Of a DNA stretch of 64,000 nt, positions 302 to 16,998 are shown one piece after another. The first letter of the stretch is position 1, and the number at the start of each line of letters is the position of its first letter. Source of the DNA: Paramecium tetraurelia (lineage: Eukaryota). Made by a program: the position numbers and the translations under genes. The notes under the pieces are model-generated. The model searched no databases, was not told the origin of the DNA, and saw only the letters and a program-made list of their open reading frames with translations. The DNA lies in contig CT868051.1 of the NCBI GenBank assembly GCA_000165425.1, positions 1 through 64,000 on the forward strand, read 5' to 3'.

Positions 302-3300
302 TCAAAGAATCTAAGATTCTTGTCTTTATGTCTAAGTCCTCCAAAATTAATTCTCATGGTCCTCTTCAGGTTTTAAAGAAATTCTTGAAAAGTTTTGAAT
401 TGTTTAGATTTAACTTTACCTTCTATTATGGTCAGAAAACTTTAAATTACCTTTTAAGGAGTACTATAAAATCATTTTATGAAGTTATTGGCTGCTTTCT
501 CTTTGATTATATTATTCTTATTTCGACCTTAAAAATTATTAGAATATGTTTACTTTCTCACTTTTAAATTGTCTCTTGACACAGCTAATAAGTATTCTTT
601 TAGGATTCTAAATCTTTTTTGGATTCTGCTTAGTTAATTTTAACGAGTTTCTAATATTTTCTAAATTTAAGGATGAGTACGAAATTTAACAGGAGAATCT
701 GAATATTTTTAATTTCACACTATCTATTTTATCAAAAATCCTTGTTAAATATGCTAATAGTATTGAAATAACAAGTTTAAGTATATAAAAGCTATTGAGA
801 CTTCCAATTACGACATAGAAAGGCCAGATAATTTCATTAAGGTTTTGGTCTTGCGCTGAATGAATTGAGCAAGCTAAAACTATTGAAATGGCACATATAA
901 TGATCGATTATTAATCTAAATAATTCAATTATTTAGTCATGTAAGGATTTATTTATTTTGCATAATGACTGTAAGAAAAAAGCAACAAAAAAATTAAGGA
1001 GGCTTTGATTGTAATGAAATCATCATAATAAATGCGAACCAAGATTATCATCTCCTTTTTAAATATTTTGACTGTTTCCCAATAATATGCATTTTTAGTA
1101 TACTCATGGTATAAGTATCCCCATGTCTTTCGAGTAATGGTCTTGTCGAGGTTATGTCTATTTTTGTAAACTCCATACCAAAGTATTGTTGGGATTGTAA
1201 TACATAAAATAATTAACAGTGGAATATCAAATGCAATAATCCAGTTGAGATGAGTGGATGTATCATATCTATAAGCCACATTACTTGAAATCCATAACTC
1301 ATCAGATATTTATCTATATGATAACAATGATATAAGCTATCCAATCAAACTAGGTTGTAGAAAAATGAACAAATATATAAGTGAAATCGTAAAAAATGAG
1401 AAGTTATGATTGATTAGCCGAACTGCAATTGCTAACCCTCCAAATCCTATAAATAAAATTACATAAGAGAAAGCCATGATAAAGCTCCAGATTATTCTGA
1501 AATATATGATCAATACATCTGCAAATTAAACTAAGTAACAGTCAAGTGAAAAGGCCATTGATTCAATTGGACTGGAGCAGCTACTAATAATTACCGATAA
1601 CTCTGTTGGTAATTCTAGTTAAAATTTAAGGAGAGTAGATATGATTTATAAGTAATTAGTAAGAACTTTAATTAGGATTGCAGAAGATATTTGCTTGATT
1701 GGGAACTTAACTCCAAACAATCGTAATCTTAATCCTGCTATAAATTCCTAAATCATTTCTGTGGTGCTAGTAACAGAAATTAAAGTAGACAGTAATGTCC
1801 AAAAGATCACAAAAATGATATAAAGAATATTGTAAACAGTTACTTTACAATTTAAACATGAATATGCTGAACTTAAATAAAACGAACCTTATCCTCTACT
1901 ATCATAAAGATCACATTATTCGCACAGAGCACCAATATGTCCTATTAAACAGGATTTATCTCCTGGGTTCCATCCTCCTTAGCAATTTTTTGGCATGTGG
2001 TAGCAATATTCTATAGCTTAACTATGGTTATATGCCCTCCAATATGTTGGTCTCAATTCAATCATTGAAGACTCTATCAGTCTGATTTTCATATCATCCT
2101 TAAAACTGCAATTTTAGGCATTTCTTGTGACTTAATATTAGTTTTGGAATTTATCACAAAGTATGCAGCCTCCTGTTGTTTTATTTAAAAACTCCCCAAT
2201 CTAACATTAGAATGTTCTAATATCTACTAGCAACTTATAGTTAGTATTGTAACCCTAAATTAGATAAGGTGGTTCTTCAAAATACAACGGAACTGATATA
2301 TGATGACATTGAATAGAAATCCTTAACACTAAATCCATATCATAATTGGGATTCCAATAGATAATTATATCATCTAAATTAAAATCACCAGTGGAATTAT
2401 CAAAGAAAAAATGATATTTAGACAAACTAAAAGCAACTTCTTTAATTTCTTATTATGAAGTTACATTAAATGTTATTGGTTTTAGAGTGCAACTTGAATC
2501 ATACAGACCCTTATTTTATTTGTTGAATTTATCCAATGCAATAATTCTAAAAGTTAAATTATAAGGAATAAAAGTGTTCGTATATTCATCAAAGTATTGA
2601 TATGATGAAATACTTCGCCCTGAAGGAAGGGTTAAATAATTAACTAAGGATGATTATCCTAAAATTTTATAAGGAGCGACTGTTATTTATTCGATTATTT
2701 CCTCTGAGGTTTTTTTCACCAATTCTTTATTTAAGATGGTTTTGCCACCATCAATTGATATTGACAACGACCGTGCCTTTTCAAATACATTGTTACCAAA
2801 CTAAGTTGAATTGTTGTCTGAAAATTCAATCTCAAATTCATTTATTAATTGAAGGGATTGATTCTTAAAGTAAACTGCGCCTGCTATTTAAGCTGTATTA
2901 TTTATGAATTGACTTCGATAAAAATCTAATTATGCCTATTCAGAAAAATAATAAATGGCTCCTCCAAAATCTGCAGAGTTATTGTAGAATAAACTATTTT
3001 GAATCAAGATGTTAATTTCCTAAATAAATAATGATCCCCCGTTTTAGGCAGAATTATTTTAAAATACTCCGCCTGAAATAATAGCTTAATCATTTAATTA
3101 GAACTCAATTAATTCAAGTTTATTATGTTATAACAATCGATTATTTGAGAATAATTCATTTTGAAAGGTTAAATCACTAGGATTTTTCATGATTGACAAG
3201 CATCCTGCTTAACCACATTAGCAATTTTTAATTTTTATTGATGAAAATGCTATTTAATTTGATCTTTGTTGTTTAATATCAAAAATTTGAAAAATTCCAT

Positions 3301-6300
3301 ATTAGCAATTTTTACAAATCACATTCTACAATATAATATTTTAAAAAATAAGTTTATGAGTTTAGTCGATTGACTTAATAGTTACTAAACCTAAATTAAT
3401 TGGTTGATATTTTAAGATCGATAATAAATTGCAAATTAATAATTACTGCTTTTTTTAGGTATCATCAGTTGGTTAATATGACCAGGATATTTAAGTTAAT
3501 GATAAAGGACATTCTAATTCAGAACTTGCACTTAATTCCACATTTTAGCACTCCCCTCCTATGGATTTATCAGATTCCTATACATTTAAGATCTTAAGGT
3601 TGTTTATTACAATTTAGCCATTCAATTCTAAAATTTAGAAATAATATTACATTCTTTTAAGTTCAAATCAATTAGAGGAGATTACAAATATGTGCTATTT
3701 TAAATTGTTATGTTTTATAAATTGATATTATAAGCCTGTTTGATTTAGATTAAATATTGAAAATGAGATGATATGAAGCTACAATTTATTATATTTATAA
3801 ACCCATCGTGAATATATATTAAAGGATTAGAATAAGCAACTTAAAAAGCCTCATTTTCTGTGAACTTATTTATGGATTGAATAAAATTGTCAAAACCCTG
3901 TTTTGTTGAATAGAAGTTTATATTTCTAAACATTATTTGAGTATTCAACGATCCTGTATTTGGAGGGTCATATGAGAAGAAGGAGTTTTACAAAGAAAAG
4001 CAATCCAATACTATTAAATTTTCCAATTCGATCGAATTATAGCTCTTGGAAGGCAAAATGTAAATTGCTCCTCCATCATGTCTGCTAAAGGATTCTTGTA
4101 TTGTCGTATTCTTTATGACAATCTTTAATTGTGATTCAGAACCATCGATATGTAAACATCCACCTACCGAAAATGTTGAAGTATCTGATAAACTGAATGT
4201 ATTTTAAAAGGATGAATTTACAATTACTATTTAACTTTTCCCTTGAGTAACAATATGGAAAGCTCCTCCAGTTGTAGCGTAGGATCGATTTATAACTAAC
4301 TTATCAAAAATTAACGATTGGGTAATAATCATTCCATTTCCACTTAAAGACTTAATAGGGAAAATATTGGCCAAATTGATATTACTTAAATCTTAATATT
4401 CATGATGCAAGAGGTGACGACTTAGTGAATCATAAATCATGTCATTGCTATTTGAAAATCTACATGAATTTATTTTCACTTTAGTAGATTTGATATATAA
4501 AATAGAATTGCTTGAATTAGTAACAATATTTTATAGGAAATCCGAGTCTGATATCTAAACATATCCCTAATATAATGAGATGAACGCCGTAGTTGCTGAT
4601 ATTCTTGTTTAGTCCTGAAAATATTCATTAAGATGATTTCCAGTGTAGTTTAACTTTTAAAGAGTTATTGAGCAATTTTATTAAGATATGATGGATAGTA
4701 AAGCTGTTTATTTATTGGATCTAGTTATCAATAATAAATGTGAATAGAATATGATATTGAGAACTGTAATAACTTCTGACAATGATCCCTACATAAAATC
4801 ATATCCTTAAAGGATGACGAATGGGNNNNNNNNNNNNNNNNNNNNNNNNNNNNNNNNNNNNNNNNNNNNNNNNNNNNNNNNNNNNNNNNNNNNNNNNNNN
4901 NNNNNNNNNNNNNNNNNNNNNNNNNNNNNNNNNNNNNNNNNNNNNNNNNNNNNNNNNNNNNNNNNNNNNNNNNNNATTGATACTCAAGCTATCTGAACCA
5001 TTAAGGAATTGATATTGACAATTTAGTAGAACCCTATGTATAAGAAAAAATGCATATTTTTGTAAGAAAACTTCTCAGTGCATTCGTATGAACTATGCAA
5101 AGATTTAGTCAGGTACATTTAATTTGAAGAGACACTGAAATTTTTAATATCCAAAAACTCTGAATATAGCAAAGTCATCTCAGGCAATCCATGTGCTCTC
5201 AATAATTATATACCTTCTAAGTAACACAGTTAACACTCAAAATACATAATAGAGGAATAGTAAGAAATTTCTTATTATAATATTTCAGATGTTAGTTGAC
5301 CATCCAAAAAAGAAAACCCAACTAAATTTAATTATAATTAAGCTATTTCAACATATTTTATTATTTTTATTACTTGTTGTTGATCATCATATTGAGTGTT
5401 TAAAATGTGAATATTTTCTATATAAGCTTTAGAACTAGACTACAAGGCTAATTCTGATTTTGAATATTCAACTAGATTATTTATTAAGCTACTATTCTTA
5501 ATTTAAGTATTGTTGATTAAACCATCCTTGAGATTTATGATATTAGATGAAATAAAATTTGAGTTTTAGACTATTGATGAATTAAATAAAGTTAAATTAA
5601 TAATCTACAGTGATGATAAGTGGGAAATAAGGAAAAAAGAGGAATTTTCAATAATTTGCACATTTGAAATGTAAATTTACTTTATTAATAATGATCCAGT
5701 AGTGTAATGTAAGAGCCCTTAACTCATAATTAAGTTAGAAGAGAGAAATATTGTATCCGTTATTGATATCAAATTAAAACGTGATTTGTAAGGCAAGTTA
5801 CTATGATTAGCCTGAAATTTAAAAATAGTTGAATTATAAAAAAAGGAGTCTTTAATTTACAAGTTGTTTACCTAAATTGAATTTGTAAGAGTATGTTCCA
5901 AAGATAGAAAAGTAAATATCTCAGATGATTAAACATAAAAGTCTTGAATTGTAAAATTCTCTAATAAAAGAACATAAGGGATGTTAGATCTTATTGCTAA
6001 AGAACGGTTCCATGAAGATCTTTATGGCATAGAAAAAATACAAGTTTCAAAGGCCAATGTCAATTCATACTTTAAGTTAAACAAAGTTATGAAAAACGGA
6101 GACTGATACATATCAAAATTAAAATGAATATTCTTAAAAGTAACCTAAGTATAATTGCTTAAGGATATTTAATGGAATATAGATAATATAGTAGGGGTAG
6201 TTCCTCCTTAAAATGTTATGTCAACCTATTATAATGTAAATATGTTTTATTATAAAAGTGAATAAAATTGTATATCTGCTTCGATGATGCATTCCGTTTG

Positions 6301-9300
6301 ATTTCCCTACATTATAGTAAATTAGAATTCCACATATCTTGCTTGAGCTTCGTTTAAATACTTATAAAGCAAATGAGATTCAAAAGAATTAAGATAATCA
6401 GAATAGTAAAATTCGCCTAAAAAAATGTTCTTTTGTTTAAATTAATCATTGTTATTATCATCAAGCAGCTGTTTGTATTAAATGAAATCACAAAATACAT
6501 TCTACTAAACTATATATTTAGTATAACAATGTAGGTAGTTTGTACAAACTGTTATTGTTTAGGTTAAGAAATCAAAATAATACTTGCCCTCCTTTTTTGC
6601 TTTTTCATAACATTTTCTGGAATATTATGCGTTATTGTCATTCTAAATGTAATGTGGGTTGATATCTAATATTTCCTCTTGGTTTCTTTCCAAGCAGGCA
6701 ATGCAATTGGAAGGACACTAAAGACATGTTCCATTTATGTCTTTGCTTTTGAGAAATCCAAAGTCAGTTTCTTAACATTAAATGCATGTAGCTTTTCCAT
6801 CAATAATTTCGCATTATTTACAGTTCTATTCACATCCCTTAATGCATTTTTATTCATAAAGAATGTAAGATAATTGGCAGGATGTGCAAATAATCTCTAG
6901 ATCAGACTAAGCCCTAGCCTATCCTTAATCTTCAAAGGAATTCTCACTGTTAACATTAATGAATTATTTATAGAATGCTTTTACACTCCATTTCCAATAG
7001 TCTTTATAAATGCTATTCTATTATAGACAAGTCTTGCAATTATTATTACACAATTGACATTGTCCAGTCAGTACTCCAGAGTAGTAACCATCTTCACATT
7101 AAATGCAGTACGATTCGTTCGCAATGTATTGATGAATGCATTACTTGCAATGTTGAAGGGAAGAACATGAAGTAACTTAAACAGCATCATCGTTTTTAAG
7201 ACTGATTATACATACCTATTCAGCAGTTGAAGCTAAAATAAGTGCAAATTCACAATCATCGTCATTTGACTTTAATTCACATTGTTTCGTTCCTTGATTA
7301 TAGTGATAGTGTTTTTTGCAAAGAGCACAAGCAGTAGTAACTTAATTTGTGGTAAAATTAAATATATCGAAATTCATATCTAATGTGGTAGAATATTGTC
7401 CAGAAATAATCACGTATTCAAAACAATAAATGCAATTTTCAATATTGCATTCTCTGCAATTTTTTCCATCTAAAGTTAAGTAATATTTTGAAGGGTCTCC
7501 ATTACAATAGTTGCAATATCCTTATTCATCGCAACTATTGCAATTTTAACCACATGATACACATTCATTGTATTATAATATTTAGCCATCTTCGCAAGTA
7601 CTACACCATAATAAATTATCAAATAAAAAGCACTCTTTACAATTAGGACATTTTATACATTGATTTTATATACCTAGATAATAACCAATTTAACATCTTT
7701 CACATGAATTCGAATTTAAACAAATGAAACAATTCTAAATGCAAATAGAACATACTTCTCCTGTAAAATAGTACCCTGGTTTACATAATTAATTCCCAAT
7801 ACATCCAACACATAATTTAGTTATAAATGTTTTGTCATCCTAAATTTGCATTTCATAAAAACTCACTTGGTACTCATCCCTTTAGACTACCTCATATGTG
7901 TATTATGAGTTAAAGTGAAACGTTATTGCATCCATAGTACATTTCAATGATTAGCCAAAATGAATTGGACTAGAAATACAATCAAAACAACTGACATAAA
8001 CTTCTTTTAATGAGGAGCTCTGCTCTGGACTAGAATAAATAAACATATTATTACCATTTAATACATTAGTTTTAAAATAAGAAATATCCTTTGTTACAAT
8101 CAACATTTGATCCTTCACATCTTATGTAACCTTCTAAATTGCAATTCAATTCAATTTCTTATTTCGTAAGTTATGAAAATGTTAGTGCTACTGAGACACA
8201 TTCATATTCTCCGTTAACATCCACATATCCTTCATGACAATTACAAGTGTTTTCTGATTTTGAATATTATCTATGACTATTTTCATGGCAACTCAGACAA
8301 TTTACAGATGTTGGACCATCACAATCTAGACATGAGTAATCACAACCTGCTACAACCAAAGAAGCTTAAGGCTAGCAATATTAAAAGAGTATTATATCAC
8401 TAACATAACCACGAAGATATGAATTTGAATAGTTGTCACCTCCGATATATATGTAGTAAGTTACTCCTGTAAAGTGCTAAATTTGTTTGCTCCAGGTGTA
8501 TTTGTAGTGTTAACTAATGGAAGGAAAATAGAGGGTAAATAATGGTTACCCATCATTATTCAATGTTCCTATTTCATATGAAAAATAGTGCCATGTAACA
8601 AACATTGCAGAATACTAATCACCGTATTCAGAAATTTTATCATCATCTTAGGTCTTATATCTTGATTTTATTGGAAATGAATAACTGTAGGTAGAAATTT
8701 CAAAGCCATTTTCCCCAGGAATACTACTTTGGAAGTATTTCAATAGAACATCCCTGTCTCCTATATAAGAGTCATCACTATAATTGTAATTAATGGTTAT
8801 TCTCAATACTATGGTTTCTAGAAAATTTACATCTGGTAGGTCAAGCTTTATCCACCCTTGGATTAAATAGATTGGCAAATTAAGAGGCTGTGTTGACATC
8901 TGTATTAATTCAAAGCCATTCATATGCTAATTTTTCTCGCTTATATTATAATCTTAATTCTCGCAAATTTCGTAATTAATAAATTGATTAACGCACCATT
9001 CTAAATTTAAAAGAATGTTCTAATTATCTGATGTAAACAAATTTGACATCTACCCTATGAATTACTTTAATTACACTAGAATGCCATTCTTGTTTTTGTA
9101 TTAATAGATCCCACCAATGTTGTGTCTAATTTTACTCACAAATATAGGTACATCCTATATTTATTATGTTTGTAATGGTTCCTAAACATTGTAAAGTCCA
9201 AATGTTGTTTCTTTTGATGGCATATCATAATAAGCATAAAACAGAATCCATAACCCTTCTATTATTGTGTTTGTGTTGAATTGAATCAAATCGGATGATT

Positions 9301-9739
9301 AAGAGAAGGAATAGTAGATACTGTATTGAAATTTTTATTCAAATTAATCAACCACTAATGAAACAACTAAAAGTTAAAAGCTGTTCTCCTTTTGTTTCAT
9401 AGAATATATGAACTAACCTCCTTAAATCATATTTAATTTATTTAAAGTAGCATCTATTTACTAGTCTCTGTTTCCTAAAAATAATAAATAATAATAATAC
9501 TCAAGTCTAAAATCTATGCAAAAGGTTGATATTTTGTCCAAACACCGTAACCCATACTTTATTAATGTTACACAACCTGATCAGGCTCATCTAAGTCAAG
9601 TTCTATTCGAGGAATCGTCGGATATAATAGAGGCCCATAAGGCATAAATGTGCATTAGCAATAAGTATTTCTATGATATTGAAGTTGATTACTGTAAGTA
9701 GATGAGAAATGGTAAAATTCCAAGTATAGATTTCAGCAT
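302..9739 (-). CDS. Giant (~3,100 aa) cell-surface multi-pass membrane protein: signal peptide, Cys-rich furin/EGF-like repeats, GGA(I/F/V) beta-helix-like repeats, C-terminal TM bundle
   Basis: ATG 9739 gives MLKSILGILPFLIYLQNTYC after a 22-nt intron (9671-9692). CxxC repeats at ~6500-8400. Motifs YATTGGAFHI, FSVGGCLHI, HDGGAIYI, NSAQNGGSLYL, NSADFGGAIYY, NTAQIAGAVYF. Hydrophobic TM segments at ~750-1850 with WGYLYHEY..YYWE. TGA at 302-304. Spans the N gap 4826-4975; one in-frame TGA at 4799-4801 lies next to the gap. Confidence 0.8.
4826..4975. other. Assembly gap (150 N)
   Basis: Run of N of the same length as the other two gaps, so probably a placeholder size. Confidence 0.99.
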
Positions 9740-15409: not shown

Positions 15410-16998
15410 TCAAATTTCTTAGTAGTATGTTTTTCTAATTGATTCATTCATTCTTGATATCTTTAGAGCCTCTCTAAAATTACCTTGTTTCTCTAAGATA
15501 TCCACTAAATAGAATATAATTTTTAATACATTTCAAATTTTACATCTCTATTTAATTAGTTAATTCTAAACTGATTATATAATTACAAATTTGAAGTGCC
15601 TCTGGATATCTATGAAGTTCCTTTAATGCATTCACTAAATCTAGTTCTATAAAACTACTTTTTTCGATTTAATATTCTTGTAAATTATTATTTATTCTAA
15701 TAGCTTCATCCCAACTTTAGATGGCTTCATTTAGCAATCCTTATTTTAATAATGCGTTCGCTAAATTCTAAATAATAATTTAACCTTTCGATTTATAAAT
15801 AAACATATCATTCCTATGAATATGTTCTTCACATACTTTAATAATTTCTTCTTATCTTTCTAATTCTGATAATGCTTAAACTATTTAATAATATCATCTG
15901 CTTATTACTTAAATTCTTGACTAAAAAGAAATAATTATATTCCTTCTATTTATCTGAACTACAAAATTCTATTAATTCATGCCATTTTTATTATTTGATT
16001 AAAGCATTTGCTGACAATCTTAATAATTTTCATACCTTTTTCCACATAAATACCAGGATGCTTCATTAGAGAAATTGCTTTATCATAATTATCAATTATT
16101 TCTTATTCTTTTCCCATTTTCTCTAAGATTTACCCTAAATCAATTGGTGCTTATAATTACCTTTTTTTTTGTATAAAAGCAGTTGATATTTATTATGTTT
16201 AAGTCCTAAATCTAAGCATGCCAACACTTCTTCATATTCACCTAATTTTTCTAAAGCTTACGCTATGGATTAATAAACTGAGATTTACCTTTTTCCATGT
16301 AGAACGAGTGATCATTGTTATTATACATAATCCCTAAATTCCAACATTCTGCTATTTTTCTCCATCCTTCATCAGTTATTAATCCGTCATTTTGAGTATA
16401 TAAATTTTTTATGGAGATAACTTAGGATAATTTAAATGTAGAAATTTACTTTTCTAAATGTAAAATATTTTATGCTCTTTATTATGGTTAATTCCATAAT
16501 CCCAGCATTCCAATATTTCAGTAAATCTCTTCTGTTCAAATAATTCTCGACCTAATGATTATGAAACTCCTTTTTTTACATTTTAACTAATAAAACGTAA
16601 CATCTTTGACATTTTATGTTATTGCATAATCATATAATTCAATGAGCAGGTTTTATTTACCTTGATTCCTTAGAGCTTAGGCTAATATATTGAAAAGCAA
16701 GTCTTACCTTTTTCTTAATAGAAATTGAGATCGTGCGCATTATTTAAAATTCCTAAATCCCAAGTATTTAAAATTTCCTATAATTTACCCAATTTAGCTA
16801 AAAGTTAAGCTATTTAAATTTAACAAAATTTACTCTTTTTCATGTATAAAGTGATGTTGTTTTTGTTATTCTCAATATTTTTATCCAATTACTCTAAAGT
16901 TTCATCATATTTCCCTTGTATATTTAACTCATTTACTATTTTAAATATCATTTTATACATTTTGACTAAATGTAATGGGAAATGGAATTTTAATTCAT
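15410..16998 (-). CDS. TPR-repeat protein, 13 exons, one repeat per internal exon
   Basis: Starts MNQNSISHYIQSKLNELNIQGKYDETLEQLDK. Twelve phase-1 GT-AG introns of 23-29 nt. Internal exons 102,102,102,102,132,102,99,102,96,102,105 nt. Repeat pattern Y..K|(A/G)..L...G...E....W(D/N).GI. TGA at 15410-15412. Confidence 0.88.

What the first reader, a model, noticed from the sequence alone, without database searches (positions are those of the whole stretch)
15410..16998. TPR gene assembled as one repeat per exon: 12 phase-1 introns at the same repeat position
Seen: introns at 16936-16958, 16810-16833, 16682-16707, 16552-16579, 16421-16449, 16263-16288, 16135-16160, 16011-16035, 15881-15908, 15761-15784, 15635-15658 and 15505-15529. 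All are phase 1 and all split the codon right after the Lys that ends each repeat's Y..K-type motif. Internal exons are 102 nt (34 aa, one TPR) seven times, otherwise 96, 99, 105 or 132 nt, always a multiple of 3. Several carry a W(D/N)xGI variant motif. Known: Tetrahymena LRR genes are built from 90-bp symmetric exons. Inference: this may be a TPR counterpart, a cassette system in which modules can be duplicated, shuffled or skipped in frame to diversify a binding surface. It borders the gene-poor, gapped left region, which fits a fast-evolving family.
Basis: partly seen in the sequence, partly recalled or inferred. Interest (0 to 1): 0.75.

Follow-up and report, generated by a model that had tools for sequence, protein, structure and literature searches.

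The report
Paramecium TPR genes: intron-plus-IES repeat units
A Paramecium gene family grew its protein-binding repeats by copying one small DNA unit that carries both an intron and a site where a germline-only insert is cut out; young members still reshuffle their repeats, but this gene's repeat order is old and fixed.

Summary
Observation confirmed: 12 GT-AG introns, all phase 1, split TPR codon 8 and give an open 426-aa frame under code 6. One junction has direct RNA support. The gene belongs to a family of at least 31 modelled loci: 513 of 540 introns share this site and 430 of 455 internal exons are 102 nt. The copied germline unit is therefore intron + exon + IES. Young paralogues show recent copying within genes (134 exon pairs at 92% or more, none between genes), crossovers inside exons, and faster change at ligand-facing positions. 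This gene is frozen: 9 of 11 exons are in order in the P. pentaurelia orthologue. Exon skipping and gene-to-gene cassette swaps are unsupported. The layout is known from brown algae and Tetrahymena, and IES-rich TPR exons were noted in 2019. The scan noted similar layouts in other genomes, none in this one.

The parts
15410..16998 (-). TPR-only gene, 13 exons, 426 aa under genetic code 6; old 'W(D/N)xGI' subfamily
   Evidence: sense-direction RNA at depth 0-4.7
16936..16958 (-). intron 1, 23 nt, phase 1; TA of next exon (bases 10-11) at 16925-16926
   Evidence: orthologue collinear
16810..16833 (-). intron 2, 24 nt, phase 1, in-frame and stop-free; TA at 16799-16800
   Evidence: contig with 30 nt on each side of it
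16682..16707 (-). intron 3, 26 nt, phase 1; TA at 16671-16672
16552..16579 (-). intron 4, 28 nt, phase 1; TA at 16541-16542
   Evidence: spliced read ends in two runs
16421..16449 (-). intron 5, 29 nt, phase 1; TA at 16410-16411, kept although the codon is Ile (ATA)
16289..16420 (-). 132-nt exon, a repeat with 10 extra residues, also present in the orthologues
   Evidence: 27 of 43 identical in P0002
16263..16288 (-). intron 6, 26 nt, phase 1; TA at 16252-16253
16135..16160 (-). intron 7, 26 nt, phase 1; TA at 16124-16125
16011..16035 (-). intron 8, 25 nt, phase 1; TA at 16000-16001
15881..15908 (-). intron 9, 28 nt, phase 1, follows Leu not Lys; TA at 15870-15871
15761..15784 (-). intron 10, 24 nt, phase 1, in-frame and stop-free; TA at 15750-15751
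15635..15658 (-). intron 11, 24 nt, phase 1, in-frame and stop-free; TA at 15624-15625
15505..15529 (-). intron 12, 25 nt, phase 1; TA at 15494-15495
15494..16926 (-). series of 12 TA dinucleotides, each at exon bases 10-11 (TPR codon 11): predicted IES excision scars
   Evidence: 12 of 12; published IES points on the same TA in relatives; not checked directly for this gene

Best explanation
One ancestral germline segment coded one TPR turn and held a phase-1 intron in codon 8 and a short IES nine bases further on. It was amplified head to tail by homologous unequal crossing-over or gene conversion, so every repeat inherited both interruptions (amplification of exon plus intron: shown; IES in the unit: shown for relatives, inferred for this gene). 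Crossovers need only sequence likeness and fall inside exons, so the intron is a passenger, not a cassette border (shown in young paralogues). Young arrays, two of them shown next to telomere repeats, still expand and mix repeats within a gene and change fastest at ligand-facing positions. Arrays then age, lose internal likeness and freeze. The window gene is such an old array, with repeat order fixed since before the P. tetraurelia / P. pentaurelia split (shown). The TA at exon bases 10-11 is kept because excision of the IES needs it (inferred; the TA rule is recalled and implied in PMC3464196). The product is most likely a soluble, weakly expressed TPR-only protein that binds partner peptides in its concave groove (inferred from domain content). 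I put about 0.35 on a non-self-recognition role for the young members and the rest on adaptor or scaffold roles.
For: Shared site: 88 of 91, 346 of 365 and 79 of 84 introns in three gene sets. Introns travel with exons: 0.92 identity beside exons at 95% or more, 0.56 between distant ones. Recent copies within genes only: 134 vs 0 pairs at 92%. Recombination inside exons: PHI-type p<0.005 in 4 of 7 genes, and 3 of 5 mapped breakpoints lie wholly in exons. TA at bases 10-11: 78 of 78, 280 of 285 and 66 of 68 exons. In the old subfamily 67 of 67 Leu11 codons end in TA vs 94 of 156 Leu codons elsewhere (p=4e-12), and 9 of 38 in intron-poor control arrays. Published IES points: 12 of 13 sit on the predicted TA at zero offset in locus C4, and 8 of 9 fit locus C20 of the window's own subfamily with one offset, second-best offset 4. 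Frozen order: 9 of 11 window exons in order in P0002, 10 of 10 C59 exons in P0101, exons 3-7 on the diagonal between C8 and C38, listed as genome-duplication partners. pN/pS 1.3-1.5 at positions 2, 5, 6, 9, 12, 13 vs about 0.56 elsewhere; these are the HOP ligand contacts in PMC1261162.
Against: No germline reads were laid on the window gene, and its rows were not among the 48 of 270 TPR rows seen in a table that is cut when stored. Only one junction has direct read support. For C19, C8 and C38 the periodic spacing weakens the offset fit (second-best offsets 8 of 9, 3 of 5, 3 of 3). Against the local synonymous rate the concave ratio falls to about 1.0-1.3, and the seven-position variable set has intervals touching 1, so relaxed constraint is not excluded. 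PHI was not significant in 3 of 7 genes, and on third positions alone in 6 of 8 sets. In the window gene concave positions differ only slightly more from the orthologue (16 of 36 vs 51 of 162, p=0.17). Old exons are saturated (mean 52% DNA), so ancient exchange between genes cannot be excluded. No ligand or phenotype is known.
Confidence: 0.85

Rival explanations
1. Active cassette system: exons are swapped between genes through the introns or skipped in frame.
For: All internal exons are phase 1-1 and multiples of 3. No paralogue pair of the old subfamily is collinear (0 of 21 at p<0.05). 2 of 5 breakpoints lie in introns. Three between-gene pairs reach 90-91%.
Against: 0 of 37,607 between-gene pairs at 92% vs 134 within. 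Old exons are more alike within than between genes (p=0.0004). Crossovers inside exons. Orthologues collinear. No exon skipping seen in paramecia (PMC5663052).
Confidence: 0.08
2. Independent intron gain at a favoured AG|G site (Lys7-Gly/Ala8) in each repeat, with no co-duplication.
For: 36 of 88 old-subfamily exons end in AAAG and 46 of 88 end in G.
Against: Control TPR arrays with the same Lys-Gly/Ala junction (C10, C695, C280) have 0-3 introns and none in phase 1 at this site. Intron sequences track exon likeness. It does not explain a second shared feature, the TA/IES site.
Confidence: 0.02
3. The invariant TA reflects protein constraint on Leu11 plus codon bias, or a splicing signal, and this particular gene has no IESs.
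For: Leu11 is a core TPR position (recalled). TTA is the commonest Leu codon in these exons. The window gene's own IES record was not seen.
Against: Only TA-ending codons occur, including Ile ATA and Val GTA. Control arrays use TA-ending Leu11 codons 9 of 38 times. Published IESs sit there in locus C20 of the same subfamily.
Confidence: 0.05

Closest known systems
Ectocarpus NB-ARC-TPR genes (Zambounis et al., PMC3341825; passages read)
   Same: One TPR-sized unit per exon; some positive selection on TPR exons.
   Different: Their exons are 42 aa with a linker, fused to NB-ARC, with dead exons in the introns. Here: 34-aa exons offset from the TPR register, 21-34 nt introns, no NB-ARC hit in five proteins, and an IES site per repeat.
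Tetrahymena 90-bp-exon LRR genes (PMC6564038; passages read)
   Same: Ciliate repeat arrays with one fixed exon length, one intron phase and waves of recent expansion.
   Different: LRR, 90 bp, phase 2, about 50,000 exons, with recombination between genes and a retrotransposon link. Here: TPR, 102 nt, phase 1, hundreds of exons modelled, recent copying within genes only. '102' does not occur in that paper's main text.
IES-rich TPR genes of P. tetraurelia (Vitali et al., PMC6771405: section 11, passages, Table S1 whole, 48 TPR rows of Table S2; Arnaiz et al., PMC3464196: passages)
   Same: The same genes. [quoted passage not shown] Multi-copy IESs were ascribed to expansion of repeats such as TPR.
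   Different: In what I read they give no exon length, intron phase, exact IES site, common origin, age gradient, recombination or selection analysis.
Fungal NLR TPR/ANK/WD arrays with high internal conservation (PMC4986451; passages)
   Same: Concerted evolution of repeats, repeat-number variation, variable sites on the concave TPR face.
   Different: They are STAND receptors with a nucleotide-binding domain; the word 'intron' does not occur in that main text.

Membership tests
TPR protein (Pfam TPR_1 clan) | 34-aa repeats scoring above the curated cut-off | tested here: met
   P0001 TPR_1 37.6 bits vs cut-off 27.8; orthologue P0002 27.6, just under, but TPR_14 29.9 vs 23.5
One-repeat-per-exon array | fixed exon length and one intron phase at one repeat position | tested here: met
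   12 of 12 here; 513 of 540 introns family-wide
Ectocarpus-type NB-ARC-TPR receptor | NB-ARC domain fused to the TPR array | tested here: not met
   no NB-ARC or NACHT family hit in P0001, P0002, P0101, P0102, P0122; the 426-aa frame is repeats end to end
Ectocarpus-type NB-ARC-TPR receptor | inactive spare exons inside introns | tested here: not met
   introns are 21-34 nt, too short to hold an exon
Tetrahymena-type shuffled exon array | recent exon exchange between paralogues | tested here: not met
   0 of 37,607 between-gene pairs at 92% or more; 3 at 90-91%
Tetrahymena-type shuffled exon array | recent expansion of exons | tested here: met
   within-gene pairs at 90% or more in 10 of 18 young genes; not in the window gene (max 61%)
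Tetrahymena-type shuffled exon array | retrotransposon association | not tested
   not examined
IES-dense TPR genes of P. tetraurelia | an IES near the 5' end of each TPR exon | tested here: inconclusive
   met for relatives C4 and C20; for the window gene only the TA scar, 12 of 12
Diversifying binding surface | pN/pS above 1 at ligand-contact positions | tested here: inconclusive
   1.3-1.5 against all-site pS, about 1.0-1.3 against local pS, in young genes; not significant for the window gene
Alternatively spliced cassette exons | exon-skipping transcripts | not testable with these tools
   depth under 5, 58-nt reads, no joints listed

The most novel reading that the evidence does not exclude
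Because every repeat carries an IES at the same TA, joining the left end of one IES to the right end of the next during macronuclear development would delete whole repeats in frame. Each sexual generation could then make somatic variants of a TPR binding surface that is under diversifying selection: a programmed-DNA-elimination route to receptor diversity. The only hint is a 130-bp whole-repeat 'IES' present in 37-63% of reads in all eight samples, more simply a collapsed duplicate. None of the 325 catalogued somatic deletions could be tied to a TA-to-TA unit loss.
Probability: 0.07. Interest if true: 0.9.

Novelty: new variant of a known kind. Interest (0 to 1): 0.55.

Why it matters
It gives a simple mechanism for a published oddity: TPR genes hold about 2.5% of P. 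tetraurelia IESs (PMC6771405). One IES and one intron were copied along with the repeat. The family is a natural series of hundreds of homologous introns and IES sites of graded age, useful for measuring their loss, drift and shift in small-RNA dependence. It shows a codon held fixed by DNA excision as well as by the protein. It also warns that symmetric one-repeat exons need not mean cassette shuffling, and it corrects the public gene model, which differs at 7 of 12 junctions.

Tried and rejected
Sequencing-run search: no RNA holder listed; no conclusion drawn. Read laying gave no joints at depth under 5, so skipping was not testable. DNA search found no close duplicate of the window gene, only C413 at 70% over 174 bp. 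Of 40 pattern hits, 30 loci were fetched and scanned; 15 single-hit ones and C539 scored 14-28 against a shuffled null of 13-18 and were dropped. Collinearity between old paralogues: 0 of 21 pairs significant (C258 left out as partial). Best-hit test on old exons: 11 of 68 in the same gene vs 8.6 expected, uninformative. Search of 1.84 billion representatives: of 267 proteins held, the 6 with three or more W(D/N/E/Q)xG(I/V) motifs are all Paramecium; 9 of 10 top unnamed hits looked up were prokaryotic or unnamed generic TPRs. Somatic whole-repeat deletion: three catalogued deletions of 124-131 bp mapped, by assumed contig order, to stretches with no TPR array (scores 18-23, null 17-22). A 122-bp deletion in C4 does not start at the TA site. 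Rows dropped: 9 C402 exons identical to C351 (overlapping contigs) were left out of pair, selection and TA counts but remain in the 346 of 365 and 294 of 306 counts. IESs of 130, 506 and 44 bp were left out of the position match. A subtelomeric claim for young genes is confounded because many arrays run off contig ends. No structure prediction and no repeat tree were run.

Full report
Observation. The 12 introns are real as stated: minus strand, 23-29 nt, GT..AG, all phase 1, leaving an open 426-aa frame under table 6. A public protein named Paramecium tetraurelia (P0001) is identical over the exons it models, but it agrees at only 5 of 12 junctions. Pfam places the split codon at TPR position 8, inside helix A, so each exon is a rotated TPR. 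Eleven junctions follow Lys and one follows Leu. Three raw RNA runs show weak expression in the sense direction. Six read ends support intron 16552-16579, and one contig ends exactly 30 nt either side of intron 16810-16833. The other junctions rest on frame and on orthologues.

The family. A motif search, protein searches and a spliced Viterbi with a flat intron penalty found eight loci of the window's own W(D/N)xGI subfamily: 88 of 91 introns at the same site, 68 of 78 internal exons 102 nt. A younger subfamily gave 19 stretches (18 after merging an overlap): 346 of 365 introns, 294 of 306 exons, modal intron 28 nt. Five further TPR genes picked from a published table share the layout: 79 of 84 introns, 68 of 71 exons. 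More loci were seen but not modelled, so 31 is a lower bound. Three control TPR arrays, two of them near-duplicates, lack these introns. The old subfamily lies nearer contig ends than chance (KS p=0.003, 8 loci). Two young arrays have telomere repeats within about 1 kb downstream (motif recalled).

How the arrays change. Among 285 young exons, pairs at 92% identity or more number 134 within genes and 0 between genes; three between-gene pairs reach 90-91%. Introns follow their exons (0.92 vs 0.56 identity), so exon and intron are copied together. Copies are often not adjacent. Recombination occurs inside exons: p<0.005 in 4 of 7 genes, not significant in 3, and weak on third positions alone; 3 of 5 strict breakpoints lie in exons and 2 in introns. 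Positions 2, 5, 6, 9, 12 and 13, the ligand contacts named in PMC1261162 (passages), show pN/pS 1.3-1.5 against about 0.56 elsewhere. I chose that set after seeing the entropies, and against the local synonymous rate it is only about 1.0-1.3. No stop codon occurs in the 285 exons.

This gene is old and fixed. Its 102-nt exons average 49% DNA identity, at most 61%, and no modelled exon elsewhere exceeds 70%. Nine of 11 internal exons lie in order in the P. pentaurelia protein P0002, including the odd 43-, 32- and 31-residue ones. The two misses fall where P0002 looks mis-annotated, and P0008 supplies one of them. A paralogue is collinear with its P. octaurelia orthologue at 10 of 10 exons, and two genes listed as genome-duplication partners keep a diagonal over exons 3-7. 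Old paralogues are not collinear with each other (0 of 21) and their exons are slightly more alike within genes (p=0.0004), which fits separate ancient expansions.

The missed layer. Exon bases 10-11 are TA in 78 of 78 old-subfamily exons, 280 of 285 young ones and 66 of 68 others, and in all 12 downstream exons of the window gene. Leu11 uses only TA-ending codons in the old subfamily (67 of 67 vs 94 of 156 elsewhere), and substitutes such as Ile ATA and Val GTA keep the TA. Vitali et al. report that TPR genes hold 1135 IESs and show one gene with IESs at the 5' end of TPR exons (PMC6771405, section 11). In their Table S2 (48 of 270 TPR rows seen), 12 of 13 IES points coincide with my predicted TA in locus C4 at zero offset, and the thirteenth is also a TA nine bases after an AG. 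Eight of 9 fit locus C20 with one offset. C19, C8 and C38 fit too (9 of 9, 5 of 5, 3 of 3), but periodic spacing makes those fits weaker. Most of these IESs are 26-28 bp. The germline unit is thus intron, nine bases, IES, rest of exon. For the window gene the IESs are inferred, not seen.

Mechanism and function. The best reading is tandem amplification of that unit by homologous recombination, with intron and IES as passengers, followed by ageing and freezing (0.85). Exon skipping is unlikely: none was observed in paramecia, whose spliceosome recognises only very short introns (PMC5663052, passages). The protein is TPR from end to end with no other Pfam domain, so it most likely binds partner peptides as a soluble scaffold. 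A non-self-recognition role for the young members, by analogy with fungal and brown-algal arrays, is plausible but untested.

Novelty. One-repeat-per-exon arrays are known in Ectocarpus (TPR, 42 aa) and Tetrahymena (LRR, 90 bp). IES-rich TPR exons and IES multiplication by TPR expansion are in print (preprint 10.1101/448316 and PMC5405496, passages). Ten library searches found no description of the 102-nt phase-1 family or of the joint intron-plus-IES unit; the library lacks most subscription papers. Earlier notes of this scan describe similar layouts in other genomes and none in this one. Verdict: new variant of a known kind, interest 0.55.

Noticed in passing
window 16810-16833, 15761-15784, 15635-15658: Three of 12 introns are 24 nt and stop-free, so retention adds 8 residues in frame; 21 of 88 old-subfamily introns are of this kind. 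The public model reads through all three.
   Followed up: partly
window 302-9430, minus strand: Four long ORFs (1116, 390, 1040, 482 aa) look like pieces of one very large cysteine-rich protein with a hydrophobic C-terminal region; no Pfam hit in the three scanned.
   Followed up: partly
window 17490 and up, minus strand: The right-hand neighbour ends in a scramblase-like domain (PF03803, below cut-off on a 50-aa piece) and is better expressed, depth 11-18.
   Followed up: partly
   Followed up: partly
L113 (C351) 3.6-5.0 kb and L115 (C402 end): Nine exons are 98-100% identical between the two contigs, most likely redundant assembly of one very long array.
   Followed up: yes
L122 7747-8077 (C413 near 16.7-17.1 kb): Telomere repeats in both orientations lie inside the contig just downstream of a young array, possibly a joined chromosome end.
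   Followed up: no
P0002, P0006, P0008: P. pentaurelia holds three near-identical copies of the orthologue, each apparently mis-spliced or frameshifted in different places.
   Followed up: no
old-subfamily last repeats (L049, L050, L052, L053; P0101, P0102): A shared terminal motif of the form AIxxxRL suggests a common C-terminal cap despite different repeat numbers.
   Followed up: no
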